Below, in pieces: positions 27,829 through 43,097 of a DNA stretch of 53,715 nucleotides. Source of the stretch: Pseudomonadota bacterium (GTDB lineage: Bacteria; Bdellovibrionota; FAC87; UBA2466); NCBI GenBank assembly GCA_043718025.1, contig JAYSWN010000158.1, positions 1-53,715 of the forward strand. The letters are read 5' to 3'. Numbering within the stretch: the first letter of the stretch is position 1; the number at the start of each line of letters is the position of its first letter. The notes beneath the pieces are model-generated. The model was not told the DNA's origin. It made no database searches and was given only the letters and a program-made list of their open reading frames with translations. A program made the position numbers and the translations under genes.

Positions 27829-28521
27829 ATGCAAGAGACCTCTCTTTTTGTAGCCCAAGATTTGGATTTCACTTATCAATTAGGACGCACCCTGTTTCCA
27901 GCGTTGCGCGGCCTTAGCGTCGAAATCCCGGCCGGCAAAATTACAGCGCTGGCCGGCCCCTCCGGATCCGGTAAATCCACCCTGCTTCACCTACTTGGCC
28001 TGATTGAGCCCGTGCAAAAGGGAAAGCTGCTTTATCGGGGGCAAGATTTTCGAACGTTGAGTGAAGCGCAAAAGAACCAGCTCCGTCGCTTTGACATGGG
28101 TTTTGTATTTCAACAGTTCTTTTTATTCGACACTCTGAGTGCCGTCGAAAATGTAGAATATTTCTTGAAGAACCAAAACCTTTCGAAAAGTGAACGGCAA
28201 GGGCGATCAGAAAGCGCGCTGAAACAAGTTGGTTTGGGCGATCACCTAAACAAAAAGCCAAACGAAATGAGTGGCGGCCAGCGCCAACGAGTTGCGGTGG
28301 CCCGCGCCCTCGTTAAAAACCCCCGCGTCATCTTGGCCGATGAACCCACCGCCAGCCTCGATCAAAAAACCGGACGCGAAGTGATGGAACTGCTGCATAA
28401 CCTGAGCGTTCAGGGCACCTCCGTAGTAGTGGCAAGCCACGACCCCATGGCCCTCTCTTTCGCCAACGCAACCATCCGCATTATGGACGGCAAAATTCAG
28501 AGCGGAGACCATCATGAGTAA
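27829..28521 (+). CDS. ABC transporter ATP-binding protein (LolD/MacB-type)
   Basis: GPSGSGKST, GFVFQ, MSGGQRQRVAVARAL, ILADEPTASLD and SHD. Confidence 0.93.
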   Translation: MQETSLFVAQDLDFTYQLGRTLFPALRGLSVEIPAGKITALAGPSGSGKSTLLHLLGLIEPVQKGKLLYRGQDFRTLSEAQKNQLRRFDMGFVFQQFFLFDTLSAVENVEYFLKNQNLSKSERQGRSESALKQVGLGDHLNKKPNEMSGGQRQRVAVARALVKNPRVILADEPTASLDQKTGREVMELLHNLSVQGTSVVVASHDPMALSFANATIRIMDGKIQSGDHHE

Positions 28522-29734
28522 ACTTTTAATGCTCGTTAATTTGGCCAGCCGCAATCTGCTGCGTAATCCTCGCCGAACTCTTGCCGTGCTGCTGACCGTT
28601 GCCATGGGCGCGGGCTCGCTATTTATTTTCGAAGGCTTTAACACCGGCATTATGAATCAGTACCGTGAAAACGCCATTCATTCGCGGCTCGGCTACGGTC
28701 AGCTCAACACTCACGGCTACACCGACAAGGTGCACGAAAAGCCCTGGGAGCACTGGATTGAAAATCCGGCGCCAATGCTATCGGCAATTAAACAGCTTCC
28801 CGGCGTTACCAACGTATTCCCCCGGCTAGGCTTTTACGCCCTGCTCTCCAACGGCGCCGTATCATTAAGCGGTCGCGGCCAGGGTATCGACGGCTTAGCG
28901 GAAGCAGACTTTTTTCACTCGCTCAATATCGAGAGTGGGGTTTCTTTAACTGACCAGCCCGACGGTGTCTTATTGGGACGGGGGTTGGCCCGCGCGCTCA
29001 ATGTCAAAGTGGGCGAGAGGGTAACCGTTCTTGCCAACACCGTTTTCGGAAGCATGAATGGCGCCGACTTAACCGTGGTTGGAATTTTTCACACCGGTGC
29101 TCGTGAGTTTGATGACTTGGTGTTTCGCCTCCCTTTGAAAGCCGCACAGAATTTGCTCGACACACAAAAAGTGGAGAGCATTGCCCTTGGACTGAAAGGG
29201 CTCGAAGACTGGACCCCGGTTGCCGCCGCAATCGAGAAAGCCTACCCAACGTTGGAAGCTACCCCCTTTGCCGTGCTCGACAAGGTCTATTACCAAAATG
29301 CTGTCGACTGGCTCAGCTCTCAATTTCGCGTGATTCGCCTCATTTTTCTGTTCATCGTAATTTTGGGAATTTTTAATACCATCTCCACCGGCGTGTTGGA
29401 GCGCAAGCAAGAGGTAGGAAATCTGCGCGCCAACGGCGAATCGCGCCCCCAAATTTTGGGTCTGTTTATGACGGAGGGAATCTGCTTGGGCGTGCTCGGA
29501 GCGCTAACCGGAATCGGTTTGGCGCTTGTGCTCAACGCCACAATCTTAGGCAACGGCATCTTGATGCCGCCCAGCCCGGGACTGACCCGGCAGTTTCACG
29601 TCTTTGTTGAACTCAGCCTCTTTTCGGCGGTTAAGACGTTCTTGCTCGGCGTAGTTTGCGCGATGCTCGGCACGTTAATGGCGTCAATTAAGGTAACCCG
29701 TCTCCCCATTGGCGAGGCACTGCGTTCAGTTTGA
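28514..29734 (+). CDS. ABC transporter permease (LolC/E-FtsX-MacB family)
   Basis: RNLLRNPRRT, a large periplasmic domain, ERKQEVG.LRA.G, and C-terminal PI.EALR. Confidence 0.9.
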   Translation: MSKLLMLVNLASRNLLRNPRRTLAVLLTVAMGAGSLFIFEGFNTGIMNQYRENAIHSRLGYGQLNTHGYTDKVHEKPWEHWIENPAPMLSAIKQLPGVTNVFPRLGFYALLSNGAVSLSGRGQGIDGLAEADFFHSLNIESGVSLTDQPDGVLLGRGLARALNVKVGERVTVLANTVFGSMNGADLTVVGIFHTGAREFDDLVFRLPLKAAQNLLDTQKVESIALGLKGLEDWTPVAAAIEKAYPTLEATPFAVLDKVYYQNAVDWLSSQFRVIRLIFLFIVILGIFNTISTGVLERKQEVGNLRANGESRPQILGLFMTEGICLGVLGALTGIGLALVLNATILGNGILMPPSPGLTRQFHVFVELSLFSAVKTFLLGVVCAMLGTLMASIKVTRLPIGEALRSV

Positions 29735-29743
29735 GGTAGATCT

Positions 29744-30454
29744 ATGAGTAGACTATTTAGTCTTCTGTTTCTCTTTAGTGTTTCGACAAACGCGACGGTT
29801 TCGCCCGCCATTCTCGCTGAGACCATTTTAAAAAAAGCCGATGCGATTCGTAATCCTGCTGGCGATTTCGTAATGAAGGTGGACGTGGAGTCTTCGTTTG
29901 ACGACGCCCGAACCTTTGAGGTTTACATTCACGGCAGTTCAAGAACCCTGGTGAAAACTCTGGCGCCGGTGCGTGACATCGAACGTTCTCTACTCATGGT
30001 CGATGAAAACATGTGGGCCTACGTGCCCAATCTAAAACGCGGCGTGCGCGTGAGTCTAAGCCAAAAACTGACCGGGCAAGCCGCCAACGGCGACATCAGC
30101 CGCACTCGATGGAGTGAAGATTATACGGCCAAAATCGAGAGTGAGAACGACAAAACATGGGTGCTATTTCTTGAAGCCAATAAAAAAGGGCTTACTTACG
30201 ACAAAATTCGCGCCACGGTTGAAAAAAAATCGTTTCGCCCGCTAAGTGCAGAATATTTAAGCCTGCAGGCAAAGCCGCTAAAAAATGCAAAGTTTTCTGG
30301 CTACAAATCAATTGGGGGCAACACTCGCCCCACGCAAATTGAAATTCAGGATGCCATTCGCACTGACCAAAAATCCACGCTTACGATCAAGACCATGGAC
30401 GTAAAACCGTTACCGGCATCACAATTTAGCCTCGAGAGGTTTCAAGGCCGTTAA
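29744..30454 (+). CDS. LolA-like outer-membrane lipoprotein/lipid-sorting protein
   Basis: Signal peptide, LLM…NMWAYVP…R.VR.S..QKL.G…NGD motif typical of LolA-like carriers. Follows the ABC pair. Confidence 0.8.
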   Translation: MSRLFSLLFLFSVSTNATVSPAILAETILKKADAIRNPAGDFVMKVDVESSFDDARTFEVYIHGSSRTLVKTLAPVRDIERSLLMVDENMWAYVPNLKRGVRVSLSQKLTGQAANGDISRTRWSEDYTAKIESENDKTWVLFLEANKKGLTYDKIRATVEKKSFRPLSAEYLSLQAKPLKNAKFSGYKSIGGNTRPTQIEIQDAIRTDQKSTLTIKTMDVKPLPASQFSLERFQGR

Positions 30455-31650
30455 TGCTTAACCGGATTCTCAATTCTAGCCTGATCTACCTTTCGCTATT
30501 GGCGACCGTCGCGAGGGCGGTTGAAATCAATGGCAAGACCTCTCTGGAATCCTTCTACCGTTTTACCGACAGCACCCTGATAAGTAGATTACTGGTTGAA
30601 GCCACCGCTAAGCAGCCTCTGTGGGCTAGTGACAAAATACAGCTTGATTTGCAAGCGGAGGGGCGCGCCTGGCTAACCGACGCGCGCGGAACCGCCGAGC
30701 GAGATTGGAGTGAAATAGCGCCCCGTAATTTCTACGTCACTTTTACCGAAGAGGATCTTAGACTTCGCGTCGGCTACCAAATATTAAACTGGGGCGAGAC
30801 ATTCGGAACTCCCCCCACCGACCTGATGAATCCGCGAGACTATCGTAACTTCGATTTTCTTGATTCACCAAAAAACAAAATTGCCATTCCTCTACTGTCG
30901 GCCAGCTATAGCCTCGGCGACGGCAATCTTCAGGCATTTTTTTCGCCCAAGGGCAATGCCCCGCACCTGCCAAAAGCGCTAAACGGCATTGCGATCAACT
31001 CTAGCTCGGTAAAAGACCGCTGGCTTGAGTCATTCGAAGCGGGAGGACGCTTCTCCTACGTTCTGTCCTCGATGAACTTTGATTTGTCGTACCTTAACCA
31101 TTTCAACCGTTTTCCGGCGCTCGATTTGAATCCAATTTTGACCGGGGTAGAGCTCGTACCCGTCCTAAAAAACGTTTCAACGTTTGGCCTGGGCGTGTCG
31201 CGCGGCTTCGAGCAGGTTGTGTTGCGTGCCGACGCTCGCTACACCGTAGAGAATCCCGTCGGCATCAGCGTTGCTCAGCCCATTCGCACCTTCCGCGACA
31301 GCTATGCGGTGGTCGTTGGCGCTGATTGGTCGCCCACCTTCGTTGAAATGCTCACCTTAGGCATTCAACTTCAACTCGATCGTTACCCCATTCCCGGTAC
31401 CACCGAACAGCCGGCGGTAAATTTTTTGGCGCGCAAATCACTTTTCCGAGACCGCATGGATTTGGAAGCACAATTTTTCCAAGGGCTGAAACTCAAAGAT
31501 CGCTTTTTGCAACTGGTAGTTGCGATTCGTCCGTACGGCAGCTGGACCGGCCGTTTTTTGTTTCAGGGTTTTCGTTCCGACCCAGCTTCGCCGCTCAGTT
31601 TTCTAGGAAACTACGACCGATTAGGAGGAGAGATCGCCTTCGCGTTCTAA
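30454..31650 (+). CDS. Putative outer-membrane beta-barrel (DUF1302-like)
   Basis: Signal peptide, RVGYQILNWG…D.MNP.D motif and C-terminal Phe (…EIAFAF). TAATG coupling. Confidence 0.7.
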   Translation: MLNRILNSSLIYLSLLATVARAVEINGKTSLESFYRFTDSTLISRLLVEATAKQPLWASDKIQLDLQAEGRAWLTDARGTAERDWSEIAPRNFYVTFTEEDLRLRVGYQILNWGETFGTPPTDLMNPRDYRNFDFLDSPKNKIAIPLLSASYSLGDGNLQAFFSPKGNAPHLPKALNGIAINSSSVKDRWLESFEAGGRFSYVLSSMNFDLSYLNHFNRFPALDLNPILTGVELVPVLKNVSTFGLGVSRGFEQVVLRADARYTVENPVGISVAQPIRTFRDSYAVVVGADWSPTFVEMLTLGIQLQLDRYPIPGTTEQPAVNFLARKSLFRDRMDLEAQFFQGLKLKDRFLQLVVAIRPYGSWTGRFLFQGFRSDPASPLSFLGNYDRLGGEIAFAF

Positions 31651-31656
31651 AAACCT

Positions 31657-32634
31657 ATGCATAGAGTTCGCGTATTCTTGAATGGTGCCGCTTCTCACAG
31701 CCGAGATTTTGATTGGCGCGGTGAATTGTCACGCATGCTGTTCCGTAGTGAAGTTGATTTTCTCTCTCCCAAGAACTTAATTGAATTGTTCGATGAATGC
31801 CGTAAAGCGGCCAGCGAAAAAATCGATGTGGTGATTTCAGTGGGTGGCGATGGCACCTTCCACACGCTACTGCAGCATCTAGCCCACTCCGAAACCGTTT
31901 TTCTCGTGGTTCCGGCGGGAACCGCCAATGACTTGGCAAACGAACTCGGCATCTCCAAAAAGTTAAAAAAAGCGGTGGAGTGCATCCGGCGCGACAGTTA
32001 TAAAACCATCGATCTTATCAAGGTAAACGATCGACTCATGGCCACTAATGGCGGCATTGGCTTGGTAGGCGAAGTTGCCCACTGCATTAATCAATGGAGA
32101 AAGAGCATTCCTGGCTTTCGCGGCTTGATGAATAAAAGCCGTCATCATGTTTACACCGGAGTGCTTTCCTCACGCCTTATCGCCAACCGTATCAATTATT
32201 ACGATCTTCAGCTCACTGATTCGGAAGGAAAAAAACGAGAAGTCAGATCGCCGCTGCTCCTGATCAACAACCAGGCGAAATTGGGCGGGTCCTTTTCGGT
32301 AGCGCCATCCACCCGCAACGATGATGGTCAGTTTAATGTACTGCTCTTTACCCACGAAAATCGCATGGATCTGCTCAATGCCATTCTGAAAGTGAAGCGA
32401 GGCGTGAGCGTCGAATCAGATAAGAATGTTCAATCTTTCGAAACTAAGTCACTCAAAATTTGCGGCTTCGATGATGCGAAGCCCCTTCGTTTTTTTGGTG
32501 ATGGCGAAGAGATAGCCATCACCTCGGAGCTAAATATTTCGATTCGCCCTAGGGCACTTCGCGTCTTTGCCCCTTTTAACACTTTGGCCGAACGCATTTC
32601 CCGGGAAGCGGCTCAGAAATGGAACACGGTATGA
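31657..32634 (+). CDS. Diacylglycerol/sphingosine kinase family protein
   Basis: FLN..A, SVGGDGT, PAGTANDLA, GGIG, NDDG and GDGE motifs of the DAGK/YegS family. Confidence 0.9.
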   Translation: MHRVRVFLNGAASHSRDFDWRGELSRMLFRSEVDFLSPKNLIELFDECRKAASEKIDVVISVGGDGTFHTLLQHLAHSETVFLVVPAGTANDLANELGISKKLKKAVECIRRDSYKTIDLIKVNDRLMATNGGIGLVGEVAHCINQWRKSIPGFRGLMNKSRHHVYTGVLSSRLIANRINYYDLQLTDSEGKKREVRSPLLLINNQAKLGGSFSVAPSTRNDDGQFNVLLFTHENRMDLLNAILKVKRGVSVESDKNVQSFETKSLKICGFDDAKPLRFFGDGEEIAITSELNISIRPRALRVFAPFNTLAERISREAAQKWNTV

Positions 32635-33698
32635 CCAAAACCATCTTTTTAACCGGCGCGAGTGGCTTTCTCGGCAAGTACCTAGTTCGCGATCTGCAGG
32701 CGCGGGGAAATAAAATTATCGGCTTGATTCGCCCCGACAGCCTAGCCAAGGTAATTGACGACCCCGCCTACCAAAACGTCACCTGGGTAAAGGGCACCTT
32801 AGACACGCTGGCGGACAGCTTGTCGGCCGAAGACCGCAAGGTGCTCGCCGCCACCACCGATATTGTCCATGCCGCGGCGGTTTACGACCTGGCGCAGAGC
32901 GAAGCCCAAATGTACCCGAGCAATGTCACCGGAACCCACGAGCTGGTTAGACTGGCGAACACCTTGCCTAACGTGGCCACCTTTCATCACGTCAGTACCT
33001 TGGCGGTTGCCGGCGATAACGTTAATGAGTTTGGCGAAGATGAATTTGACGAAGGCCAGTGCTTTCCCGATGGCTATTCCGCGACCAAATTTGCCGCGGA
33101 AAGCTGTGTTCGTTATTCGGATACCAAGTACGCCAAGACGATTTACCGCCTGGGCATTCTCATTGGGGATACGAGTAGCGGTTGGATCCCAAAAATCGAT
33201 GGCCTCTACTACGTGTTGCTTTTTTTGCTTAAGAACAAAACTAAAGTTCGCGCACTATTGAGCAAGGTAAAGGTTTTGCCATTCCCGTTCGCCAGCGGTT
33301 CGCGCACCTATTTAGTGCCGGTGGATATTGCCTCCAAAGCGATCACCGCCAGCGTGGAGCAAGCGCGCAATCAAGGGGCGAAAACAGGAGACGACGTCAC
33401 CACTTACCACGTGGTGGGAGAGGGGCAGAACATTCGTGACGTTATTTCATCGATGGTTAAGTTTTTGGGTATCTCCGTAAAGCTCATGCCCGTTCCACAG
33501 AACAGTTTGAATGACGTTATCGTAGAAAAGCTGGGGGTGCCCAAAGAGGCACTCCACTACCTGTACGAGGCACCCAAATTGTCTTCGAGCCGTTTTCGCA
33601 AAGATTTTCCTGACTTTAAATTTCCTCGTTTCGAGGATTACTCGGACCAGCTTTACCGCTTTGCCCAAGAGAAATGGCAGCCGGGGAGAAACGCCTAA
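32631..33698 (+). CDS. Extended SDR / thioester reductase (NAD_binding_4, fatty acyl-CoA reductase N-domain-like)
   Basis: TGASGFLG, HAAAVYDL, NVTGT, STLAVAG, YSATK (YxxxK) and KIDGLYY. ATGA overlap with the kinase. Confidence 0.85.
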   Translation: MTKTIFLTGASGFLGKYLVRDLQARGNKIIGLIRPDSLAKVIDDPAYQNVTWVKGTLDTLADSLSAEDRKVLAATTDIVHAAAVYDLAQSEAQMYPSNVTGTHELVRLANTLPNVATFHHVSTLAVAGDNVNEFGEDEFDEGQCFPDGYSATKFAAESCVRYSDTKYAKTIYRLGILIGDTSSGWIPKIDGLYYVLLFLLKNKTKVRALLSKVKVLPFPFASGSRTYLVPVDIASKAITASVEQARNQGAKTGDDVTTYHVVGEGQNIRDVISSMVKFLGISVKLMPVPQNSLNDVIVEKLGVPKEALHYLYEAPKLSSSRFRKDFPDFKFPRFEDYSDQLYRFAQEKWQPGRNA

Positions 33699-35839
33699 TG
33701 AAACACATCGTCAGCCTCACTCATGCCTCGTCACGCCAGAATTACGAAACCACCGTTAACTTCCGGGGAGAGCAGATCCTCATCTCTCATTTTGGTACCG
33801 ACTTTGACAGCGCCGTCATGGAGGGCCTCATTCAACGTTACGATGGGCGCTGCGATGTGATTGCCTTGTCCGGAATTCATCCTCCGGTCACATTGGGCAA
33901 AAAGGTATATCTGCATCCTGACACCAGCCGATTCACTTCGTTAGCGCAAAACACCCCCGTGACGAATGGATTTGGGTTTCGCAATACCTACCTGACGTGG
34001 GCCATTCGCAATCACGCCAAAAAGTGCCCCACTTACTTCGCTCACAAAAAAATCGCCTTTGTGAGTGGCTTGGTGATGCAACCCGTGGCTACCGCGCTGG
34101 CCGATTACACCCATCGGCTTTTCTTTGCTGACCCCTTAGTGCACTTCAACCTGCCCTGGGCGATTGAAGGCAACGAAGCCCTGCATCGCTATGCCCGAAC
34201 CATGCGATCGATTCTGATGCGAAAATCACTTAAGGCCCATGCTTCGCCGTTGAACCTCACGGGTAAAGCGTCGCTTTCGCTTAAACGGTTTCTGGCCTGC
34301 GATCTACTCGTCACCACCTCAACGATGCTCGAAAGAATTGATATTAACGTCGTGAAGGGGAAAACCGTGCTCATGGACACGTTAACCCCTGATCAAGAGA
34401 CGATGCTAAAAGAGGCCGGAGCCTGCGACGTGCTTCACTTCATGCCGCAAATCGCGAGTTTAAATACCACCCATCGCCTAAACTACCCAATCTTCGAAGC
34501 GCTATTGATGGTCACCGCCGAAGATCGCAGTCAAGTGACCACTGACGATGTCTTGGCCTTTATCGACGAACAAAAATTGCGCCCTCAGCTCCATACGCTG
34601 AGCCAGGTGCCGACGGCCAGCCACCGAAAGTTCGCCTTCATCGTACACCCCTTGTCCGCCCGCGACCTGTTCCGCCATCCGGCGTTGCGCCCGCTCTCGC
34701 GAGCGCTGTCTAACCGCCGGGTGGAAAAGGGCTTTGAGAAAATGCTCACCGTACTACCCGGAATTTCCTACGGAAAAATCACCGGCATAAAGAGTGAAAG
34801 CACCGGCAACACGGCGGAAGGGCTTATTTACACTCTCTTCGACACTCCGCGAGAGATGCTCGCGCAGTCGCCGGAGCGCATGTATTCCAAGATTGTAAAG
34901 ATCTGTGAACACGCTGCCGCCCAAGGCGCCGATCTGATCGGACTCGGAGCCTTTACCAAGATCGTCGGCGACGCGGGAATCACTATTGCGCAGCGAAGCC
35001 CCATTCCGGTCACCACCGGAAATTCATTGTCAGCCGCCGCCACTCTATGGGCGGCGCGGGTAGCCATGGACAAGATGGGCTTTTTGCCGAAATACAAATA
35101 CGGCGAAAAAATAGCCGGCACCGCCATGGTGATTGGGGCCGCAGGTAGCATTGGGGCCGTATCTGCCCGCCTATTGGCACGTGTGGTGACCAAACTTATT
35201 TTGGTCGGTCCCAAACCCGACCGGCTGATGGAACTCAAAGAGAGCATTCTCAAAGAAAATGATCTGGAAATAGTGATTGCCACCAGCCCGAATAAGTTGG
35301 CCGCCCGCTGCGATCTTATTGTGATCTCTACCTCGGCCATTGACGGCGATGTGTTGGATATCGCCTCGGTAGCGGCGGGAGCGGTGATCTGCGACGTAAG
35401 TCGGCCCGTGGCCTATAAGGCCGAGCAGGTGATCACGCGGCCGGATGTGCTGGTGATCGAAAGTGGCGAAGTCGAATTGCCCGGCACGGTGGAGTTGAGC
35501 TGCGACATTGGACTAGAAGATAATATTGTTTACGCCTGCCTGGCCGAGACCGCCCTGCTGGCATTAGATGGCCGGCTTGAAAACTTTACGCTCTCGAGAA
35601 ACATTCAATACCAAAAGGTAAGAGAAATATACGACATCGCCAAACGGCACGGCGCCCGACTCGCTGAAATTCGCGGGCCGTTGGGGCTGATTACGGATCA
35701 AGAAATTGGTCTTTGCCGGGAGCACGCAACACGGGCACGACTTGGCAAAAGCGTTTTACCCCTCGTTACCAACCCACAAACTACGGGGGTTTTAAAGAAA
35801 GCCTCACGCAAACCAATTTCAGGAGAGAAGCATGTCTAA
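33698..35839 (+). CDS. Two-domain oxidoreductase, C-terminal acyl-ACP-reductase-like (COG5322) domain
   Basis: FAFIVHPL, GLGAFTKIVG, TTGNS, Rossmann VIGAAGSIG, DVSRP and YACLAE (Cys at the Aar catalytic position). About 300-aa N-terminal extra domain. TAATG coupling. Confidence 0.7.
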   Translation: MKHIVSLTHASSRQNYETTVNFRGEQILISHFGTDFDSAVMEGLIQRYDGRCDVIALSGIHPPVTLGKKVYLHPDTSRFTSLAQNTPVTNGFGFRNTYLTWAIRNHAKKCPTYFAHKKIAFVSGLVMQPVATALADYTHRLFFADPLVHFNLPWAIEGNEALHRYARTMRSILMRKSLKAHASPLNLTGKASLSLKRFLACDLLVTTSTMLERIDINVVKGKTVLMDTLTPDQETMLKEAGACDVLHFMPQIASLNTTHRLNYPIFEALLMVTAEDRSQVTTDDVLAFIDEQKLRPQLHTLSQVPTASHRKFAFIVHPLSARDLFRHPALRPLSRALSNRRVEKGFEKMLTVLPGISYGKITGIKSESTGNTAEGLIYTLFDTPREMLAQSPERMYSKIVKICEHAAAQGADLIGLGAFTKIVGDAGITIAQRSPIPVTTGNSLSAAATLWAARVAMDKMGFLPKYKYGEKIAGTAMVIGAAGSIGAVSARLLARVVTKLILVGPKPDRLMELKESILKENDLEIVIATSPNKLAARCDLIVISTSAIDGDVLDIASVAAGAVICDVSRPVAYKAEQVITRPDVLVIESGEVELPGTVELSCDIGLEDNIVYACLAETALLALDGRLENFTLSRNIQYQKVREIYDIAKRHGARLAEIRGPLGLITDQEIGLCREHATRARLGKSVLPLVTNPQTTGVLKKASRKPISGEKHV

Positions 35840-36947
35840 ATCGAAAGAGTACTTTTCAAAGTTAAATTATACGTTGGCGAACGAAGACTCTACCCTCGAG
35901 GTGGAGATGGTGAAGCAGCTAAAGCCCAAGAACACCCTTACCGTTTGTGGTAGCGGCGGCCGGGCCCTGCCCCTCTTGGTGGGCACCAGCGAAAAACTGG
36001 TGTGCGCTGACCTATCGGAAAATCAGCTCTGGCTTGCCGAACTTCGCGAAGAGACCATTCGTCGGTTCTCCTTTCGTGAGTTTTGTCTTTTTTGGGGGTT
36101 CCCTCCTTACGAAGTCAGCGAGAACAAAAAGGGACGGCAAGAGATGTTTCAAACGCTGGAACTCTCACGTGACGCCAAGGACTACTTTTTACAACTGTTC
36201 ACCTCGTTAGAATGGCAGGGGCTGTTGTACGAAGGAAAATGGGAGAAAACCTTTACCGGGGTTCCCAAATTTCTGCGCAAGTTTCTAGGCGACCGGTACG
36301 ATCACGTTTTTAACTTTACCAACGTAGAAAATCAAAAAACGTTCTTCGATCGAGAGCTCACAAAATTGAGTTGGGTTTTCATTCCACGCATGGTGCTGCG
36401 GGCGTTTGGAAACGCGGCTTTCTTCAATGCCTTTTTGTACAAGGGGCATTTCGTTAAAAAGAATGTGCCGGAAACACATTACGAATATTACCGTCAAGCC
36501 TACCGCAAACTCTTTTATCTGGGGCTAAATCGCGAAAACTTTTTCTTGCAGCTTACCTTCTTAGGCAAGTTGGTCTATCCCGAAGGCAATACGATCGAAG
36601 CCACCCCTGAAGTTTTTGCCGCCATGAAAAAGGTAATCGACAAACGCGAGATCATTTACAAAAAGGGTGACCTACTTAGCGTTGGCGAAAGCACAAAAGA
36701 TAAGTTCGATTTTGTGTCGCTCTCGGATGTGCCGTCATACTTTGACGCCGCAACCGACGCCAATTATTTGCAGCGGTTGAAAAAAGGCATGAACCCGGGA
36801 GCCCACGCGGTGGTGCGCTGCTACCTGCGTGTTCCCGAAGGCACCGATCTGACCGGCTTCAAAGATGTTTCGACTGAATTCCAACACCTAATCGACAGCG
36901 AAAAGACGCAGATTTATCGCATTTTTATTTACCGCTTTGAGGGCTGA
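35832..36947 (+). CDS. DUF3419 / BtaA-like SAM-dependent 3-amino-3-carboxypropyltransferase
   Basis: NYTLANED…E, VCGSGG, D.S.NQ, GKWE and FVSLSDVPSY motifs. Confidence 0.8.
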   Translation: MSKSKEYFSKLNYTLANEDSTLEVEMVKQLKPKNTLTVCGSGGRALPLLVGTSEKLVCADLSENQLWLAELREETIRRFSFREFCLFWGFPPYEVSENKKGRQEMFQTLELSRDAKDYFLQLFTSLEWQGLLYEGKWEKTFTGVPKFLRKFLGDRYDHVFNFTNVENQKTFFDRELTKLSWVFIPRMVLRAFGNAAFFNAFLYKGHFVKKNVPETHYEYYRQAYRKLFYLGLNRENFFLQLTFLGKLVYPEGNTIEATPEVFAAMKKVIDKREIIYKKGDLLSVGESTKDKFDFVSLSDVPSYFDAATDANYLQRLKKGMNPGAHAVVRCYLRVPEGTDLTGFKDVSTEFQHLIDSEKTQIYRIFIYRFEG

Positions 36948-38362
36948 TGGGAAACGCAACGCAGCTCTTCATCGAGCGAGTAAAAGAAAATCCCAACGCC
37001 ATGGCGCTCTGGCTTCCCAAAGCCGGAGCTACCACTTTTGGGGAATTGGCTGGAATCGGCGCCAGGGTGCAGGCCGAGATTCGGCGCCACGGTTTAGGTG
37101 CCGGCGATAACGTATTGCTGGTCGAGATGTTGAATCCACGCCTGTACGGTTTGATCGTAGGCCTGATGGCATCGGGCATCGGCGTAGTGCTGGTAGAGCC
37201 ATGGATGCCGGTGGCGCGCATCGACCCGGTAATTCGCTACATTCGGCCCAAGGCTTTCATCACCAATTGGTTTGGAAAGTTGTGGGGATCGCGAGTGAAA
37301 GCGATTCGCCAAATTCCTCTGTGGTTGGACTCAAGTCTTGCGACCATTGGCCGCGCGCAAGATCTAAAAATGGTCGACGTGCCGAGGGAGCAGCCAGGAA
37401 TCATCACCTTCACTTCGGGAACCACCGGAATGCCGAAAGGCATGGTGCGCAACCACGGTTATCTACAAGAACAGCACCGCGTGCTGTCGGCGGCCCAACA
37501 TGCCCACGAGTACCCGCGTCCCGACCTCTGTATTTTCGCCAATTTTGCGTTGTCGAACCTGGCCTCGGGTCGCGGCTCGGTGATAATTCCCTCCAAATGG
37601 AAGCCTAAACACTTAAAGGCGGCGAGTGAACTGCCTGACCAGTGGCAGCCGCAAACCGTAACCTGTGGCCCCGCTTTCTTACTTAAAATGATGGAGGGGC
37701 GGTATTTTTCAAAGCTAGACTCCATTCACGTTGGCGGCGCGCTCACCGACTGCGCGATTTTCGAAAAGGGGTTTGACCTCTGGCCAAACGCATCGTGGCA
37801 TCACTTATACGGCAGCACCGAAGTGGAGCCAGTGGCATTGGCGGAAGCTAGAATGGCGGTAAAAAAGAGCCGCGACCGTGGCTATTTTCAGACCCTTTGC
37901 CTAGGCACTCCGATTAACGACATTCAGGCCGACTTCACCCCGGACACCGTATGGGTTGCCGGACCGCATGTCTGCCCTCAGTACTTGGCGAACGAAGAAG
38001 AAAACCGCAAGCACAAGCGGCTCGACGAGCAGGGGCGTACCTGGCACCGCATGGGCGACCGTGTTCAACTTCGCGATGGCGAATGGTGGTACAACGGTCG
38101 AGAAGCTCAACCGATTGAAGATTTTGAGTTGGAACAAAAAATTTACTCAACCGTCGGCTCCAGCACGTCATTTTTGGCGGCGGGAAATCCCAAAAAAGTG
38201 TTTCTGCAAAATGCAGCGGCACGGGCCCCGATCATTCGAGAAAAATTTCCTCAGATAACTGAAATCATTTCCACGACGATCGTGCGAGACAGTCGACATC
38301 GAGCGCGCATCGATCGGGTGAAAAGCCAGCAACCGGCGAAATGGAAAAGTTGGCTAAACTAA
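36947..38362 (+). CDS. AMP-binding (ANL) enzyme, OleC-like subfamily
   Basis: FTSGTTGMPKG, VGGA, YGSTEVEPV, WHRMGD and C-terminal D.RH.ARID. TGATG coupling. Confidence 0.85.
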   Translation: MGNATQLFIERVKENPNAMALWLPKAGATTFGELAGIGARVQAEIRRHGLGAGDNVLLVEMLNPRLYGLIVGLMASGIGVVLVEPWMPVARIDPVIRYIRPKAFITNWFGKLWGSRVKAIRQIPLWLDSSLATIGRAQDLKMVDVPREQPGIITFTSGTTGMPKGMVRNHGYLQEQHRVLSAAQHAHEYPRPDLCIFANFALSNLASGRGSVIIPSKWKPKHLKAASELPDQWQPQTVTCGPAFLLKMMEGRYFSKLDSIHVGGALTDCAIFEKGFDLWPNASWHHLYGSTEVEPVALAEARMAVKKSRDRGYFQTLCLGTPINDIQADFTPDTVWVAGPHVCPQYLANEEENRKHKRLDEQGRTWHRMGDRVQLRDGEWWYNGREAQPIEDFELEQKIYSTVGSSTSFLAAGNPKKVFLQNAAARAPIIREKFPQITEIISTTIVRDSRHRARIDRVKSQQPAKWKSWLN

Positions 38363-38380
38363 ATAAATAGGAGACGGGCC

Positions 38381-39409
38381 ATGCGTATTGAATCAAAAAA
38401 AGGAGACCCGGCTTGGGTATTTGATTTTTGTGAGCTGCCCAACCAGATTCGCGAAGGCCGGGCCAAAGTGGGAAATATCCCCCCCGCTCTTTGGGCCCAG
38501 TTTTTAAACTTGGCACCCGCTGGTAGCAGTCAATTTTGGGTGGCTTATGATGGCAACAAAGCCGTGGGAAGAGTGGGCGTCAGTTTAGCCCCAAACCACC
38601 CCGGCACCGGCATCGTTGGATTTTTTGAAACCGACGTAAGGTCTTTTGAGGCCGACGCCATTGCCACGATCCTGCTCAGTACCGCGGTGGAGTGGCTAAA
38701 GTTAAAAGGCTGCACCTCATTCGTGGGTCCCATGAATTTCAACACTTGGTTTCCCTATCGCTTTCGTACCGATAACGATGAGCGCGCGTTTAAATGGGAG
38801 CCGCAGAACCCCGCCGAATATCCGGCTTTTTTTGAAAAGGCCGGCTTTGTGCCCTTTGAAAAATATCATTCGGTAGGCAGCAGTGGACTCAATGATTTTG
38901 CCGCTGGCACCGCCGCCGCGTACCAAAAGGCTAGGGCTTTGGGCTACCACTTTCGCAATTGGGATGGAAGTCAGGTACTCGAAAAAGAGGTGCCCATCCT
39001 CTATCGACTCAGTCTAGAGGGCTTCGCCAACAATTTTTTGTTCCAAGCAATTCCTTTAGAAACCTTCCGGCAGCTTTACGTTCCGATTGCGAACAAGTTT
39101 GATTTTGGCTTCTCATTTTTTTGCATGAATCCTGCTGGCGAAGAGGTGGGCTTTGTCTTTTCATTTTTGGATGATGACGCTTTGGTTATAAAAAGCGTCA
39201 CCGTGTTGGCCACGGAACGGGGAAAGGGCTTGAGCAATGCCCTCACCCATTTGGCGGCGGCCGAAGCGTTAAAGCGTGACGTTTCTCGCTACACCTCGGC
39301 GCTAATGCACCAGGGTAACCGCAGTGAATCTTATTCAAAAAAGGGAGGCACGCTATGGTCGCATGAGTACGTGCTTTACAAAAAAGATGAACTCAACCAT
39401 ACGACCTAG
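38381..39409 (+). CDS. GNAT-family acyltransferase (tandem fold)
   Basis: GIVGFFE, GPMNFNTW..YRF, EP.NP.EYP..F and the acyl-CoA-binding motif ERGKGLS. GGAG RBS. Confidence 0.75.
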   Translation: MRIESKKGDPAWVFDFCELPNQIREGRAKVGNIPPALWAQFLNLAPAGSSQFWVAYDGNKAVGRVGVSLAPNHPGTGIVGFFETDVRSFEADAIATILLSTAVEWLKLKGCTSFVGPMNFNTWFPYRFRTDNDERAFKWEPQNPAEYPAFFEKAGFVPFEKYHSVGSSGLNDFAAGTAAAYQKARALGYHFRNWDGSQVLEKEVPILYRLSLEGFANNFLFQAIPLETFRQLYVPIANKFDFGFSFFCMNPAGEEVGFVFSFLDDDALVIKSVTVLATERGKGLSNALTHLAAAEALKRDVSRYTSALMHQGNRSESYSKKGGTLWSHEYVLYKKDELNHTT

Positions 39410-40567
39410 CTAGTTGGGCGATTTAGAATTGAAGCGGGCAAGTAGCGACAGAAGAGCCAGCACAATTGCCCACCAGGCCAGCCTCCCGTTTTGCAATATG
39501 GCACCACCGATCAGCGGGCCCACCACCATGCCCAACGACTGCAGGCTAGAAACCGTTCCCAAGACTTGCCCCTGATCTTTCGCGCTTGCTCGCTGACTCA
39601 GCATTGAGGTTAGTACGGGGCGAAGCAACGAGTTACCGATCGAAAAAAGGACGAGCGCCGAACACGCCATTGCTACGGTGCGAGAAAATCCGAGTAGCAA
39701 GTAACCGGCTGCCGAAAAGAGAAAAGCGGAAGAAGCTAGGCGTACTTCCCCGAAAAATTGGGTTAGGCGGCCCATCAAAAATCCTTGAATCACAATGCCG
39801 AAAACGCCGCTCACGGCGAAAAAGGCTCCCACCTCTTTAGGTCCCCATGGGGCTCCAGATGAGGTGACCAACGCCCGTTCCAAAAAAAGGCCCAAGCCTT
39901 GAGAAAAAAAACCGAAAGTTAGCGCAAACACACCAAATTGAATCCACAGCGGCCGCCATTCACGACGTGAGAGCAATGAAGTTAAAGTGGAAGGTGCTAC
40001 GCCGATCGTACTTTCGGTGAGGGGTACGACTGGTTTTAAAAGCAAAAAGGTGGCCAGTAGACTAAGCGTAGAAAAGCCTGCGGCAACGTAAAAGGGAACG
40101 CTCCAGCCCCACCCCACCAAGGACGCCGACAGCGCCGGACCAAAGACCAACCCGATACCAAATGCCGCACCCAAAATTCCAAACGCCCGAGCTCGATCTT
40201 TTGGTGGAGTCGAATCGGCTAGACAGGCTTGGGCAATCGATAAATTTCCGGCAGTCGCCCCGTCAAGCATGCGTCCTAAAAACAAGAGCCAAAGTGAATC
40301 GGCGCGGGCCAAGACCAGAAGCCCGACTAAGGTGCCAAACTGACTCAACAACAAAACCGGACGACGGCCAATTCGGTCTGACCAGCGGCCAAGCCATGGG
40401 GCGGCCAAGAGCTGACAAAGTGCAAAGCTCGCGGCCAATAGGCCCACGGTAAGGGGGCCGGCACCAAACCGCTCGGCCAAGAAGGGAAGCACCGGCACCA
40501 TCATCATCATGGCCATCATGTCGGCGACAACGATCAGAAAAAGGGGGGCTACATTACGAAAACTCAT
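39410..40567 (-). CDS. MFS transporter (TetA/DHA1-like)
   Basis: Motif A GRWSDRIGRRPVL, GRMLDG, motif C GLVFGPAL and about 12 TMs. ATG at 40567 follows GGAGG. Confidence 0.9.
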   Translation of the reverse strand: MSFRNVAPLFLIVVADMMAMMMMVPVLPFLAERFGAGPLTVGLLAASFALCQLLAAPWLGRWSDRIGRRPVLLLSQFGTLVGLLVLARADSLWLLFLGRMLDGATAGNLSIAQACLADSTPPKDRARAFGILGAAFGIGLVFGPALSASLVGWGWSVPFYVAAGFSTLSLLATFLLLKPVVPLTESTIGVAPSTLTSLLSRREWRPLWIQFGVFALTFGFFSQGLGLFLERALVTSSGAPWGPKEVGAFFAVSGVFGIVIQGFLMGRLTQFFGEVRLASSAFLFSAAGYLLLGFSRTVAMACSALVLFSIGNSLLRPVLTSMLSQRASAKDQGQVLGTVSSLQSLGMVVGPLIGGAILQNGRLAWWAIVLALLSLLARFNSKSPN

Positions 40568-40639
40568 CCTCCCTCTATACCCGCAATTGACTCGGCGTGT
40601 TAGCAAGGATTAGCTGCGTGTACGAGAGCAGGAAAAAAT

Positions 40640-42010
40640 ATGCAAACCGACGAGAACAGTGCCAAACCAAAGAAAGCGCCCGGGCCAAATTTTTTCCAGG
40701 TGGCGAAAAGCTTACCGCTCATTCTCAACGACCGATTGAAATGGATGGAGTCTCTTCACGCGAATTTTGGCGACGTGGTAGGGATTCGGCTCGGGCCGCG
40801 AAAAATTTACGCAGTTTTTCATCCCGATTACATCCGCCATGTGCTGGTCACCAACGCCAAAAATTATTGGAAGGGGCGTACCTTCGAAAAGACGCAAGCC
40901 TATCTCGGCAAAGGATTGGCCACGGTGGAAGGGCCAACTTGGCAAGTTCAGCGGCGTCGCATGAATCCGCAGTTTCATCGCGACGCCTTAAAATCTTTGT
41001 TACCCGCCATTGATCTGGTGATCGATCGACTGATTGGGCGTTTTGAAGCCAAGGCCATAAGCGGCGAACTGGTCGACCTGGCGCTTGAATTTCCTAGGCT
41101 CGCCATGGAAGTGGTGGCGCGTTCCTTTTTTGGGGTTGAGGTGCCGCAAGAGAAAATCGAAAAGATCATCGATGCGTTTAAGGAATCGCTGGAATTTACC
41201 ACCGCCCGTACGCTTAATCCGTTCGATATTCCTGAGTCGATTCCGCTGCCCAGCAACATTCGCTACGGCAAGGCCATTCGGCTTTTAGGTGACGTGGTTT
41301 ACGGGATGATTGAAACGGAGAAAAAGAAAGAAAACTCGCCGACCCTCCTTTCAATGTTGATTCGCGCTTCGGATCCGGAAACCGGAACCGGAATGACTGC
41401 AAAACAGCTGCGCGATGAAGTGATGACGATGTTTATCGGTGGCACCGATACCAGTGGCAATACGCTGTCTTGGATTTTTTATAATCTGGGCCGCCATCCC
41501 GAAGTTCAAAACCGGGTGCGGGCCGAAGTGATTCGCGCCGACGGCGGGGTTGAGCTCAATCCTGAAAATTTAATGTACACCCAAAGAATGATCGAAGAGA
41601 CGCTTCGCCTCTTTCCGCAGAATTGGGTGGGGTCGCGCGACTCCTACCGGGACGATGAAATTGGTGGCGTGCATATTCCCGGCGGTAGTACGGTTTTTTT
41701 AGGGGTTTACGTGGCACACCGGCGTCAGGACTTTTGGACCAATCCATTGCAGTTTGATCCCGATCGGTTCTTGGCTGAGAACTCGGCGGGCCGCCATCCC
41801 ATGGCCTACATGCCGTTCGGCGCGGGCCAACGCAAATGCATTGGGTACCACTTTGCGATGATGGAATTTTTGTTAGCAATTCCTAAGATTCTGCACCGCT
41901 TCGAATTTGACGTGGTGGGTATCGAGAAGATCAAACCGCATCCGACCTGGTCTTTGTGGCCCAAGCCCGGAGTTCCGGTAAAGTTACGCCTGCGAAAAAC
42001 TGTACATTGA
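40640..42010 (+). CDS. Cytochrome P450
   Basis: I-helix GGTDTS, ExxR (EETLR), FDPDRF and heme motif PFGAGQRKCIG. Confidence 0.96.
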   Translation: MQTDENSAKPKKAPGPNFFQVAKSLPLILNDRLKWMESLHANFGDVVGIRLGPRKIYAVFHPDYIRHVLVTNAKNYWKGRTFEKTQAYLGKGLATVEGPTWQVQRRRMNPQFHRDALKSLLPAIDLVIDRLIGRFEAKAISGELVDLALEFPRLAMEVVARSFFGVEVPQEKIEKIIDAFKESLEFTTARTLNPFDIPESIPLPSNIRYGKAIRLLGDVVYGMIETEKKKENSPTLLSMLIRASDPETGTGMTAKQLRDEVMTMFIGGTDTSGNTLSWIFYNLGRHPEVQNRVRAEVIRADGGVELNPENLMYTQRMIEETLRLFPQNWVGSRDSYRDDEIGGVHIPGGSTVFLGVYVAHRRQDFWTNPLQFDPDRFLAENSAGRHPMAYMPFGAGQRKCIGYHFAMMEFLLAIPKILHRFEFDVVGIEKIKPHPTWSLWPKPGVPVKLRLRKTVH

Positions 42011-42065: not shown

Positions 42066-43097
42066 TTAATTCACGCCAAACATCGCGTCCATTTGGGTCT
42101 TGGTCATGCTGTGATTGACCACGTTTCCGTTAAACGGTTTGGTAGCGGCCGATGCGCCTTTTAAATCCGCGCAAGAGTAATTCAGGGAAAAACCTGAAGC
42201 CGTTGCGCTATTTCCGCCACCATTCGCTTCAGTTTTGGTGTCTGTTCCGTTCCATTGGTCCATTTCCGAAATCCCGAGCTGGTCAGCAAATCCATCTGTA
42301 TGGCCCGTGCCTGAAGATAAGGCATTGTTTGTCTTGGCCACCAACATAGTGCCTCCACTCGTTCCACTGGCATAGACTCTCCAGCAAGCGAACAGCGAAG
42401 CTGACGGCGAACCACCACGCTGACGGCCGAGTTCGACGGACTGAACGGTAGTCGCTTTGGTCGACGTATTGTAGGTAACGCTGCCGTACATCGCGTCATC
42501 GGTCGATGGCGTGGTGAGGTACGAAGTGGCAAAACGAGAGCCCAACACATCCACCGTTTGGGCTACTCCCGATCGATCCCATTTTACGTAGAGCAGTTTA
42601 CTCGAAGAGCCTAAGCCGACTCCGCCCATAATCAAAAAGCCTTTGCTGGCCGAACCCGACCCCGTCCAGTACATGGTGGCGTGGGTAGCCCCATCCACTT
42701 TAACGATCGCGACGTAATCATAGAAGGTCGAGAAAGTGCTGGGGGCGACCACTTTGGCCACCGTTCCCGTAACCACTTTTCCATCGTGCGTACCGCCAGT
42801 TAAGTTGGTTGCGGTGCCATCGGCAGCCAGCGCGGTGAGATCCGGCTTCATGCCGAGTTTTACGACCAGCTTATAAAGAAACTCTTCGGCCAAGGCCGGA
42901 AAGTGAACGTTGATATGGCAAAGGTGGCCGTGAAAATTCTTAAGGGCGCCGTGGTCATAACTCTGCGCGTCAGTATCACACGCGCTGGCCTTTACTTTTC
43001 CATCTTCAGGTGGCTTTTCTCCGGCATTTACGCGCAAGGAAAGTGAAACGAAGGCAAAACTGATCAATCCTATAAAGAACCATGTTGTTGGTTTCAT
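42066..43097 (-). CDS. Hypothetical secreted Gly/Ser/Thr-rich protein
   Basis: ATG at 43097 follows GAGGA. Signal peptide (…RVNA/GE), then a beta-rich mature region with 4 Cys. Confidence 0.75.
   Translation of the reverse strand: MKPTTWFFIGLISFAFVSLSLRVNAGEKPPEDGKVKASACDTDAQSYDHGALKNFHGHLCHINVHFPALAEEFLYKLVVKLGMKPDLTALAADGTATNLTGGTHDGKVVTGTVAKVVAPSTFSTFYDYVAIVKVDGATHATMYWTGSGSASKGFLIMGGVGLGSSSKLLYVKWDRSGVAQTVDVLGSRFATSYLTTPSTDDAMYGSVTYNTSTKATTVQSVELGRQRGGSPSASLFACWRVYASGTSGGTMLVAKTNNALSSGTGHTDGFADQLGISEMDQWNGTDTKTEANGGGNSATASGFSLNYSCADLKGASAATKPFNGNVVNHSMTKTQMDAMFGVN

What the first reader, a model, noticed from the sequence alone, without database searches (positions are those of the whole stretch)
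27829..39409. Ten-gene operon for a probable novel amino/ether lipid with its own trans-envelope transporter
Seen in the sequence: ten co-oriented genes with overlapping stop/start codons or gaps under 20 nt. They encode an ABC ATPase, LolC/E-type permease, LolA-like carrier, OM barrel, DAG/sphingosine kinase, thioester-reductase SDR, acyl-ACP-reductase-like fusion, DUF3419, OleC-like ANL enzyme and GNAT. Established: BtaA (DUF3419) moves the 3-amino-3-carboxypropyl group of SAM onto a lipid hydroxyl, and Aar/AcrA-type reductases make fatty aldehydes and alcohols. Inference: acyl thioester is reduced to a fatty alcohol, joined to a homoserine-type ether head group, N-acylated by ANL+GNAT, possibly phosphorylated, then moved to the outer membrane. 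There is no BtaB, OleA/B/D, PKS or NRPS, so it matches neither betaine lipid nor olefin pathways and may be missed by rule-based BGC finders. I know of no characterised cluster with this combination.
Basis: partly seen in the sequence, partly recalled or inferred. Interest (0 to 1): 0.85.

Follow-up and report, generated by a model that had tools for sequence, protein, structure and literature searches.

The report
Predatory bacteria's undescribed amino-lipid pathway
Ten tightly packed genes, together with two more that have moved to another part of this genome, form a gene set shared by many predatory Bdellovibrionota that likely turns fatty acids into fatty alcohols and then into an undescribed, probably ether-linked envelope lipid with an amino-acid head, which would be a new bacterial route to such lipids.

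Summary
The ten-gene operon is real and conserved, but it is not the whole pathway. Relatives carry a UbiA-like membrane transferase and a PPDK/RPH-type phosphotransferase between the ANL and GNAT genes; here both sit on contig C95. Among 251 phylum genomes, all 67 with the reductase fusion and 77 of 79 with this divergent DUF3419 fit the set; none of 5 true-BtaA genomes do. Modules swap: AAR+SDR+DAG-kinase for an FcrA-type reductase–kinase; GNAT for formyltransferase plus hydrolase (20 versus 28 of 50 loci, never both). The GNAT is a remote, full-length homolog of the GNAT in sphingolipid operons. Best reading (inferred): fatty alcohol → alkyl phosphate → alkyl diphosphate → UbiA-made ether → SAM-derived homoserine head → N-acylation → export. 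No product is shown. Aminocarboxypropyl transfer is unproven (15–18% identity to BtaA), and UbiA chemistry on saturated chains has no precedent I know. The transporter is accessory (35 of 79). My literature searches found no paper on it. This scan reported the HMG-CoA-reductase-led version before, on other DNA; the AAR/SDR/DAGK version returned no earlier finding.

The parts
27829..28521 (+). ABC ATPase (LolD/MacB type), accessory transport module
   Evidence: Pfam ABC_tran 5e-34, best NCBIfam DevA/LolD models below cut-off
28514..29734 (+). LolC/E-like (type VII ABC) permease
   Evidence: FtsX + MacB_PCD; close homologs in 38 of 251 genomes, 35 of them with the divergent DUF3419, 31 within 12 kb of it
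29744..30454 (+). LolA-like periplasmic carrier
   Evidence: PF17131 8e-36
30454..31650 (+). Predicted outer-membrane barrel (DUF1302-like)
   Evidence: PF06980 1e-7; barrel fold not modelled here
31657..32634 (+). DAGK/YegS-family lipid kinase, predicted fatty-alcohol kinase
   Evidence: DAGK_cat + YegS_C; GGDG and DGE motifs present; replaced by an APH-type kinase domain in HMGR variants
32619..33698 (+). Extended SDR (NAD_binding_4, PRK07201 N-terminal type), predicted aldehyde-to-alcohol or thioester reductase
   Evidence: TGASGFLG and YSATK motifs
33698..35839 (+). Two-domain acyl-thioester reductase: N-terminal domain of unknown role (1-305) plus AAR/PigE-type domain with invariant Cys (YACLAET)
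   Evidence: alignment A1; PDB 4ppm E 1e-42, 6jzq E 1e-16; model pLDDT 85.9, Z 30.6 over 325 residues to AAR; longest ORF starts at 33674
35832..36947 (+). Divergent DUF3419 (BtaA-like) SAM-dependent transferase, predicted aminocarboxypropyl donor
   Evidence: PF11899 92 bits against 374-402 for true BtaA; class I SAM-methyltransferase fold, best Z 14.1 among many similar rows; separate from BtaA in tree
36947..38362 (+). OleC-like adenylate-forming (ANL) enzyme
   Evidence: P-loop TFTSGTTG, YGSTE and DxRH motifs, with Arg where the genome's own OleC has Lys; fused to UbiA-like in 6 homologs
38381..39409 (+). Tandem-GNAT, YghO/ceramide-synthase-type, predicted N-acyltransferase
   Evidence: profile match to E. 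coli YghO prob 99.3, E 1e-20, 322 columns; to this genome's spt-linked GNAT prob 99.6
40640..42010 (+). Cytochrome P450, possible accessory tailoring gene (uncertain; separated from the operon by an MFS gene on the other strand)
   Evidence: best hit in this genome for 10 of 10 cluster-associated P450s tested, but only 27-34% identical

Best explanation
The ten genes, with the UbiA-like and PPDK-like genes on contig C95, form one conserved gene set that likely builds a two-tailed envelope lipid from a fatty alcohol and a SAM-derived homoserine head and likely exports it. Inferred steps: (1) the AAR-type fusion reduces acyl-ACP/CoA to the aldehyde and the SDR reduces it to the alcohol; (2) the DAGK-family kinase makes alkyl phosphate; (3) the PPDK/RPH-type enzyme adds a second phosphate through phospho-His, giving alkyl diphosphate; (4) the UbiA-like enzyme transfers the chain to a small hydroxylated acceptor, most simply a glycerol(-phosphate) unit, as an ether; (5) the DUF3419 enzyme adds 3-amino-3-carboxypropyl from SAM; (6) the ANL activates a second fatty acid, which the ceramide-synthase-type GNAT puts on the amine (in the other variant a hydrolase-fold partner puts it on an oxygen and the amine is formylated); (7) the LolCDE/LolA/barrel module moves the lipid outward. 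Shown: gene content, order, co-occurrence, module swaps, folds and catalytic motifs. Not shown: any substrate, product, step order or direction of transport. Class-level confidence (fatty-alcohol-derived amino-lipid) about 0.75; this exact route about 0.4.
For: Co-occurrence over 251 genomes: 67 of 67 with the reductase fusion and 77 of 77 with a strong UbiA-like hit also have the divergent DUF3419; 53 of 67 fusions lie within 5 kb and 66 of 77 UbiA-like genes within 12 kb of it; 0 of 5 BtaA genomes have either. ANL-UbiA fusions in 6 proteins. Reductase+kinase module replaced by an HMGR-fold/APH-kinase fusion plus FAAL in L062 and L087, with Phe four residues before the catalytic His, the bulky-residue sign of the fatty acyl-CoA reductase FcrA (PMC11948995, passages). 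The fusion family lies beside wax-ester synthase in 10 of 80 metagenome loci, none among the 19 cluster-type loci. Loci with UbiA-like + PPDK-like but no DUF3419 nearby hold CDP-archaeol-synthase-like (L092, L093, L102) or PlsC-type acyltransferase genes (L096), and L093 and L095 have two PPDK-like genes and no DAGK in the fetched stretch. Best solved relative of the UbiA-like profile is DGGGP synthase 6m31 (E 3.6e-9, first Asp-rich motif region only). GNAT and formyltransferase exclude each other (20 and 28 of 50 loci; hydrolase module in 27 of 28 and 0 of 20), which needs an amine; DUF3419 is the only candidate amine source in the set.
Against: UbiA enzymes known to me use allylic or glycosyl diphosphates (recalled); a saturated alkyl diphosphate is a poor donor, the second Asp-rich motif is replaced by ExxRK, and no desaturase is in this cluster. 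The DGGGPS match covers about 90 residues and is generic to the UbiA family. No gene supplies or dephosphorylates the proposed glycerol acceptor. The DUF3419 model matches ordinary methyltransferases as well as anything. The PPDK-like protein scores on RedH/PigC (condensation) and Rph (hydroxyl phosphorylation) models alike. 12 of 79 genomes lack the AAR fusion, and in family f15 loci (L068, L078) I saw no replacement reductase within the fetched DNA. Profiles were built from cluster members, and kin are not independent.
Confidence: 0.42

Rival explanations
1. Same precursors, different linkage: the lipid is an alkyl-phospho-homoserine type phosphodiester. DUF3419 alkylates the phosphate oxygen, or the UbiA-like enzyme uses alkyl phosphate as acceptor (as decaprenyl-phosphoribose synthase does, recalled) or forms a P-O bond from alkyl diphosphate; no C-O ether is made.
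For: Avoids unreactive saturated alkyl transfer. CDP-archaeol-synthase-like genes, which act on a lipid phosphate, appear where DUF3419 is not nearby. Second UbiA motif is basic (ExxRK), suited to phosphate binding.
Against: BtaA's known acceptor is the DAG hydroxyl (PMC10685587, passages). CarS-like and PlsC-like neighbours fit a glycerol-ether intermediate equally well.
Confidence: 0.22
2. The set makes a released small lipophilic natural product (signal or predation weapon), with the PPDK-like enzyme acting as a PigC/RedH-type condensing enzyme and the OleC-like ANL closing a lactone.
For: PigE-type reductase domain and PigC/RedH similarity; P450 or AurF-like oxygenases in some variants; a DUF3419 gene lies in the nocuolin locus, where Met C2-C4 and N enter the product (PMC7923214 table; PMC9486936 parts 1-3 of 5); patchy presence (4 of 28 genomes in the window's family).
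Against: Lipid kinase, UbiA-like membrane enzyme, ceramide-synthase-type GNAT and Lol-type transporter all point to a membrane lipid; no ACP, PKS, NRPS or aminotransferase in this variant.
Confidence: 0.17
3. The module imports or salvages prey-derived lipids (barrel, carrier, ABC; kinase traps the alcohol) and remodels them.
For: DUF1302 barrels are linked to uptake of hydrophobic compounds (recalled); MMPL replaces ABC in L030, L036, L047; a ceramidase gene lies beside the kinase in L078.
Against: LolCDE/MacB-type ABC systems are exporters or extractors (recalled); reductases that make alcohol de novo are in 67 of 79 genomes; close transporter homologs are in only 35 of 79.
Confidence: 0.08
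4. The genes modify ceramides made by the spt pathway (kinase like Caulobacter CpgB, then a homoserine head).
For: This genome has an spt-GNAT-SDR locus on C185; CpgB is a sphingosine-kinase-related ceramide kinase (PMC9393093, passages).
Against: 32 of 79 cluster genomes have no match to the spt-linked GNAT at E 1e-30, including all of families f8 (0 of 29) and f4 (0 of 14); conversely 28 of 28 genomes of the window's family have it, but only 4 have the cluster.
Confidence: 0.04

Closest known systems
BtaA/BtaB (BTA1) betaine-lipid DGTS synthesis
   Same: PF11899 domain; conserved N-terminal Y..xxED and glycine-rich SAM motif; probable SAM C4 transfer
   Different: 15-18% identity, 92 against 374-402 bits, separate long branch; no BtaB beside it; amine predicted to be acylated or formylated, not methylated
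FcrA and AAR/PigE-type fatty acyl reductases (fatty aldehyde/alcohol supply)
   Same: AAR fold with catalytic Cys; FcrA-type enzyme fills the same slot in variant loci
   Different: extra 300-residue N-terminal domain; no aldehyde decarbonylase, aminotransferase or wax synthase in the cluster
Archaeal ether-lipid route (DGGGP synthase, CarS)
   Same: UbiA-fold enzyme with first Asp-rich motif; CarS-like genes in variant loci
   Different: donor predicted to be a fatty, not isoprenoid, diphosphate; second motif altered; no GGPP synthase or GGGP synthase in the loci
Bacterial ceramide synthesis (Spt, bCerS, CerR, CpgB)
   Same: tandem GNAT homologous to the GNAT of spt loci, an SDR and a DAGK-family kinase
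   Different: no Spt or ACP in the cluster; GNAT only 16-19% identical; distribution independent of spt-linked GNAT
Myxobacterial ElbA-E / AGPS ether-lipid routes
   Same: FAR-like plus acyl-CoA-synthetase activities feeding ether lipids (PMC9131029, passages)
   Different: no FAR-ACS-ACP-acyltransferase fusion and no AGPS among the cluster genes; uses kinase + PPDK-like + UbiA-like instead
OleABCD olefin pathway
   Same: OleC-like ANL; hydrolase-ANL fusion resembles OleBC in the formyltransferase variant
   Different: no OleA; the genome's own Ole locus is on C149, its ANL 22% identical
Rv2047c (proposed reductase + PEP-utiliser for phosphomycoketide)
   Same: proposed pairing of reductive release with a swivel-domain phosphotransferase to give an alkyl phosphate (PMC2443190, one passage; a proposal, not a result)
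   Different: single protein beside a PKS; no UbiA-like or DUF3419 partner described

Membership tests
BtaA/BtaB betaine-lipid pathway | PF11899 protein over the curated cut-off | tested here: met
   92 bits against 28.2
BtaA/BtaB betaine-lipid pathway | Groups with BtaA proper | tested here: not met
   15-18% identity to three BtaA from L051-L053; these form their own supported branch (long branches, midpoint root)
BtaA/BtaB betaine-lipid pathway | Adjacent or fused BtaB methyltransferase | tested here: not met
   none in the operon; only a 26%, E 1e-7 hit elsewhere; present beside L051-L053
BtaA/BtaB betaine-lipid pathway | Transfers aminocarboxypropyl from SAM to diacylglycerol | not testable with these tools
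   fold is class I SAM transferase only
OleABCD olefin pathway | OleA thiolase, OleB and OleD with OleC | tested here: not met
   absent from the operon; separate locus on C149; OleC models far below cut-off
Bacterial ceramide pathway | Serine palmitoyltransferase and ACP in or linked to the locus | tested here: not met
   none in the cluster; spt-like gene on C185; cluster without the spt-linked GNAT in 32 of 79 genomes
Bacterial ceramide pathway | bCerS-type tandem GNAT | tested here: inconclusive
   remote full-length homology to YghO and to the C185 GNAT; that YghO is the bCerS ortholog is recalled, the paper was not held; yghO lies beside spt in E. coli
AAR/PigE-type acyl-thioester reductase | AAR fold with nucleophilic Cys and Rossmann motif | tested here: met
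   Z 30.6, rmsd 3.4, 325 aligned; Cys and GxxGxIG invariant in 31 of 31
AAR/PigE-type acyl-thioester reductase | Reduces long-chain acyl thioester | not testable with these tools
   indirect: family beside WS/DGAT in 10 of 80 loci
UbiA prenyltransferases / DGGGP synthase (C95 gene) | First Asp-rich diphosphate/Mg motif | tested here: met
   RxxDExKD..D invariant in 31 of 31
UbiA prenyltransferases / DGGGP synthase (C95 gene) | Second Asp-rich motif | tested here: not met
   replaced by invariant ExxRK; Pfam UbiA 33.3 bits, just under the 34.2 cut-off
RPH/PigC-type phosphotransferase (C95 gene) | ATP-grasp domain plus C-terminal swivel His domain | tested here: met
   PPDK_N + PEP-utilizers; LLSH motif; under the cut-offs of Rph, PigC and RedH models
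Myxobacterial Elb / AGPS ether-lipid route | ElbD-type fusion or AGPS | tested here: not met
   no such domain among the cluster proteins; the rest of the genome was not searched for them
LolCDE-LolA lipoprotein sorting | Passes LolC/E and LolD equivalog cut-offs | tested here: not met
   93 of 362 and 194 of 308 bits; works like it at most

The most novel reading that the evidence does not exclude
Bdellovibrionota (and, per earlier unchecked scan notes, many other phyla) use archaeal-style chemistry on fatty chains: a fatty alcohol is doubly phosphorylated and a UbiA-fold enzyme couples the non-allylic alkyl diphosphate into an ether, which is finished with SAM-derived homoserine and a ceramide-synthase-like amide. 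That would be a ceramide mimic made without serine palmitoyltransferase, a new route to bacterial ether lipids, and a third, AAR-derived fatty-alcohol supply enzyme that also feeds wax-ester loci.
Probability: 0.3. Interest if true: 0.87.

Novelty: new variant of a known kind. Interest (0 to 1): 0.66.

Why it matters
How many bacteria make ether-linked and amino-acid lipids is still only partly explained. This gene set is in about a third of the Bdellovibrionota genomes sampled (79 of 251) and fails the membership tests for each characterised pathway I considered. It also supplies something the HMG-CoA-reductase-led version could not: unrelated folds (AAR+SDR+DAGK against FcrA-type+APH kinase) fill the same slots, which argues for a fatty alcohol phosphate, not an isoprenoid, as precursor. 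Proteins of this DUF3419 clade are on record for cultured, genetically tractable or culturable predators (Bdellovibrio bacteriovorus CAE80914.1, Halobacteriovorax marinus CBW26580.1), so knockout lipidomics can test it directly.

Tried and rejected
Literature: 10 full-text searches; none listed a paper describing this cluster. DUF3419 gave 6 papers, the four-of-six-term cluster search 0, Bdellovibrio+phosphatidylthreonine 0. Subscription journals are largely outside the library and I opened no supplements, so a description there is not excluded. The bCerS paper was not held. PMC10128005, PMC12973609 and the Lipocone preprint were searched by term and were irrelevant. A recalled report of phosphatidylthreonine in B. 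bacteriovorus (isomer of phosphatidylhomoserine) could not be checked and is not used as evidence. Promoter scan: 5 sites against 9.7 expected; no clear terminator. GC profile shows no island. No RNA holder listed. DUF3419 structure searches gave only generic methyltransferase folds. The N-terminal domain of the reductase fusion has no invariant residue, matches clusters auto-named 'quinate 5-dehydrogenase' and was not folded alone, so its fold is untested. No UbiA-like match on plasmids. Mis-assembly as the reason for the missing genes was rejected. Ceramide modification was rejected as a general account. Earlier-finding look-ups by sequence, by relatives and by AAR/DAGK words returned nothing. 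No complex prediction was run. Phyla other than Bdellovibrionota were not searched genome by genome.

Full report
Observation. The 721-aa protein has no Pfam hit; its C-terminal half matches the N-terminal region of PigE (1.9e-51) and acyl-ACP reductase (8.8e-14). A 15.7-kb contig in two runs, which may be the source of this DNA, spans 31556-41000 without differences. Named relatives are Bdellovibrionota.

The operon is incomplete. In the two closest intact relatives (L014/G006, L015/G016) the same ten genes occur in the same order, with two more between ANL and GNAT: a UbiA-like membrane protein and a PPDK_N + PEP-utiliser protein of the RPH/PigC architecture. Both are in this genome, adjacent, on contig C95 (4104-4988 and 1351-4113, minus strand; 52% and 70% identical to the L015 copies). 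The same-genus genome G001 shows the same split: ANL and GNAT adjacent on C46, the pair on C155. Six homologs are ANL-UbiA fusions, which ties the displaced pair to the window's pathway.

Conservation. In 251 genomes of the phylum, 87 have PF11899. I set apart 5 as BtaA proper (four at 374-402 bits, one split over two contigs; three inspected have a methyltransferase beside them) and 3 short partial matches (two inspected, unlike the window protein; G200 not inspected), leaving 79. The reductase-fusion profile hits 69 genomes; I dropped 2 weak ones that are aminotransferase fusions. All remaining 67 are among the 79, 53 within 5 kb of DUF3419. The UbiA-like profile hits 85; 76 score 190 bits or more, plus one cut by a contig end; all 77 are among the 79, 66 within 12 kb. 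The 8 weaker ones lack the divergent DUF3419. None of the 5 BtaA genomes has either gene. The profiles were built from cluster members and the genomes are related, so these are descriptions, not significance tests. In a tree of 49 proteins the three BtaA form their own long supported branch (midpoint root, long-branch warning).

Reductase and kinase. The model of the fusion (pLDDT 85.9) aligns with AAR at Z 30.6 and with the carmabin TAD at Z 30.9 over residues 308-684; the Cys of YACLAET and the Rossmann glycines are invariant in 31 of 31. Outside this cluster the same two-domain family sits beside wax-ester synthase in 10 of 80 metagenome loci and beside an iron alcohol dehydrogenase in 5; none of these is among the 19 cluster-type loci (many loci are short). 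In L062 and L087 the core genes occur with an HMG-CoA-reductase-fold/APH-kinase fusion and a FAAL-type gene instead of AAR+SDR+DAGK. Both have Phe four residues before the catalytic His, matching the bulky residue described for FcrA, which reduces fatty acyl-CoA to alcohol and not HMG-CoA (PMC11948995; abstract and passages). FcrA as a lead came from earlier scan notes. Unrelated folds filling the same two slots is the best evidence for fatty alcohol then alkyl phosphate. Against: 12 of 79 genomes lack the fusion, and in f15 loci I saw no substitute reductase in the DNA fetched.

UbiA-like and PPDK-like. The UbiA-like family is large (1147 representatives at E 1e-30), keeps the first Asp-rich motif and replaces the second with ExxRK; its best solved relative is DGGGP synthase, over about 90 residues. 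The PPDK-like proteins keep the swivel His. Where the pair occurs without DUF3419 nearby, neighbours include CDP-archaeol-synthase-like genes (L092, L093, L102), desaturases (L092, L094, L102), a PlsC-type acyltransferase (L096), and aminotransferase-AAR fusions with two PPDK-like genes (L093, L095, L098). I infer that the pair converts alkyl phosphate to diphosphate and couples the chain to a glycerol-type acceptor. This is the weakest chemical step: I know no UbiA enzyme that uses a saturated alkyl donor.

Amine and acylation. Among 50 loci with both UbiA-like and ANL genes (after removing 14 duplicate or non-cluster loci), 20 have the GNAT, 28 a formyltransferase, none both, 2 neither (cut short); an alpha/beta-hydrolase module accompanies 27 of 28 formyltransferase loci and 0 of 20 GNAT loci. 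Both enzymes need an amine, and DUF3419 is the only candidate source. The GNAT profile matches E. coli YghO over 322 columns (prob 99.3; pairwise BLAST alone is weak) and this genome's own spt-linked GNAT on C185 (prob 99.6); yghO lies beside spt, ACP, epimerase and FAAL genes in E. coli. That it is the ceramide synthase ortholog is recalled. BtaA makes diacylglycerol-O-homoserine from SAM (PMC10685587, passages), and a DUF3419 gene lies in the nocuolin locus where Met C2-C4 and N enter the product by an unknown mechanism (PMC7923214 passages; PMC9486936 parts 1-3 of 5; PMC5333925 passages). For the window protein only a class I SAM-transferase fold is shown.

Not a ceramide-tailoring locus. 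The spt-linked GNAT is found in 139 of 251 genomes but in 0 of 29 of f8 and 0 of 14 of f4, where the cluster occurs; 32 of 79 cluster genomes have no match with this query.

Transporter. Close permease homologs occur in 38 of 251 genomes, 35 with the divergent DUF3419, 31 within 12 kb. So the link is real but covers under half of the 79; an MMPL gene stands beside DUF3419 in L030, L036 and L047. A paralogous cassette on C205 has no such biosynthetic neighbours. Direction is untested.

Comparison and verdict. The set fails defining tests for BtaAB, OleABCD, ceramide and Elb/AGPS pathways (PMC9131029, PMC9393093, PMC11334938, PMC2443190: passages), and ten searches listed no paper on it. Earlier notes of this scan describe the HMGR-led version in other phyla; I confirmed that arrangement only in two Bdellovibrionota loci. 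The finding is a real, conserved, uncharacterised lipid-type pathway, best read as producing an N-acylated homoserine lipid from a phosphorylated fatty alcohol, ether-linked with probability near 0.4. Proteins of the clade are recorded for cultured B. bacteriovorus and H. marinus, which makes it testable. Interest 0.66.

Noticed in passing
G000 contig C95:1351-4988 (L071): UbiA-like and PPDK/RPH-like genes, the displaced core of this pathway, flanked by an unrelated PLP aminotransferase-like ORF and a lipoprotein-like ORF.
   Followed up: yes
G000 contig C185, about 17987-21263 (L111): spt-like, YghO-type GNAT and SDR genes in a row: a likely ceramide operon; the GNAT is matched in 28 of 28 other genomes of the family.
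   Followed up: partly
metagenome loci L136, L140, L150, L154, L155, L157, L169, L176, L179, L185: The two-domain AAR-like fusion, sometimes as a tandem pair, lies beside WS/DGAT and Fe-ADH-SCP2 genes: a candidate undescribed fatty-aldehyde/alcohol source for wax esters.
   Followed up: partly
L093 (G068), L095 (G183), L098 (G216): Aminotransferase-III/AAR fusions (reverse of PigE order) with two PPDK-like genes; L093 and L095 also have the UbiA-like gene, L093 a CarS-like gene, P450 and the transport cassette. Candidate fatty-amine variant.
   Followed up: partly
L092 (G253), L094 (G175), L102 (G196): Variants with desaturase + GNAT + PPDK-like (+ UbiA-like, CarS-like, P450) and no DUF3419 nearby; G196 carries two different versions of the cluster.
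   Followed up: partly
L048 (Deefgea plasmid 13580-18100), L050 (Xylella plasmid 7059-14819): DUF3419 proteins nested in this clade sit beside an iron-containing redox enzyme and SpeD or a beta-hydroxylase and GNAT, without lipid genes: a different small-molecule cluster.
   Followed up: no
L049 (Rhizobium plasmid 7835-14173): Distant DUF3419 after ketoacyl-ACP synthase III, oxidoreductase, MBL hydrolase and CoF-synthetase-like genes.
   Followed up: no
L078 (G129) 4761-6511: Ceramidase (PF05875) next to the DAGK gene in a family-f15 version that shows no AAR/SDR nearby.
   Followed up: partly
L062 (G122), L076 (G173), L105 (G229): AurF-like diiron oxygenase and FAAL(-ACP) genes in divergent versions of the cluster.
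   Followed up: no
G001:C343:15879-16820; G032:C411:12750-13958: G001 has a second cluster-type GNAT; G032 has a 66%-identical permease but no DUF3419, ANL or GNAT match (93% complete, 450 contigs).
   Followed up: no
G000 contigs C205 (about 11804-15757) and C149 (about 37417-41990): Second ABC/permease/LolA-like/DUF1302 cassette, and an OleABCD-like locus.
   Followed up: partly
window 24867-27511 (-), 39410-40606 (-), 42066-43172 (-), 43430-45127 (+): Patatin-like protein with an unknown 495-aa partner upstream; MFS transporter abutting the GNAT stop; an unknown secreted-type protein and a multi-TM protein without Pfam hits downstream.
   Followed up: no
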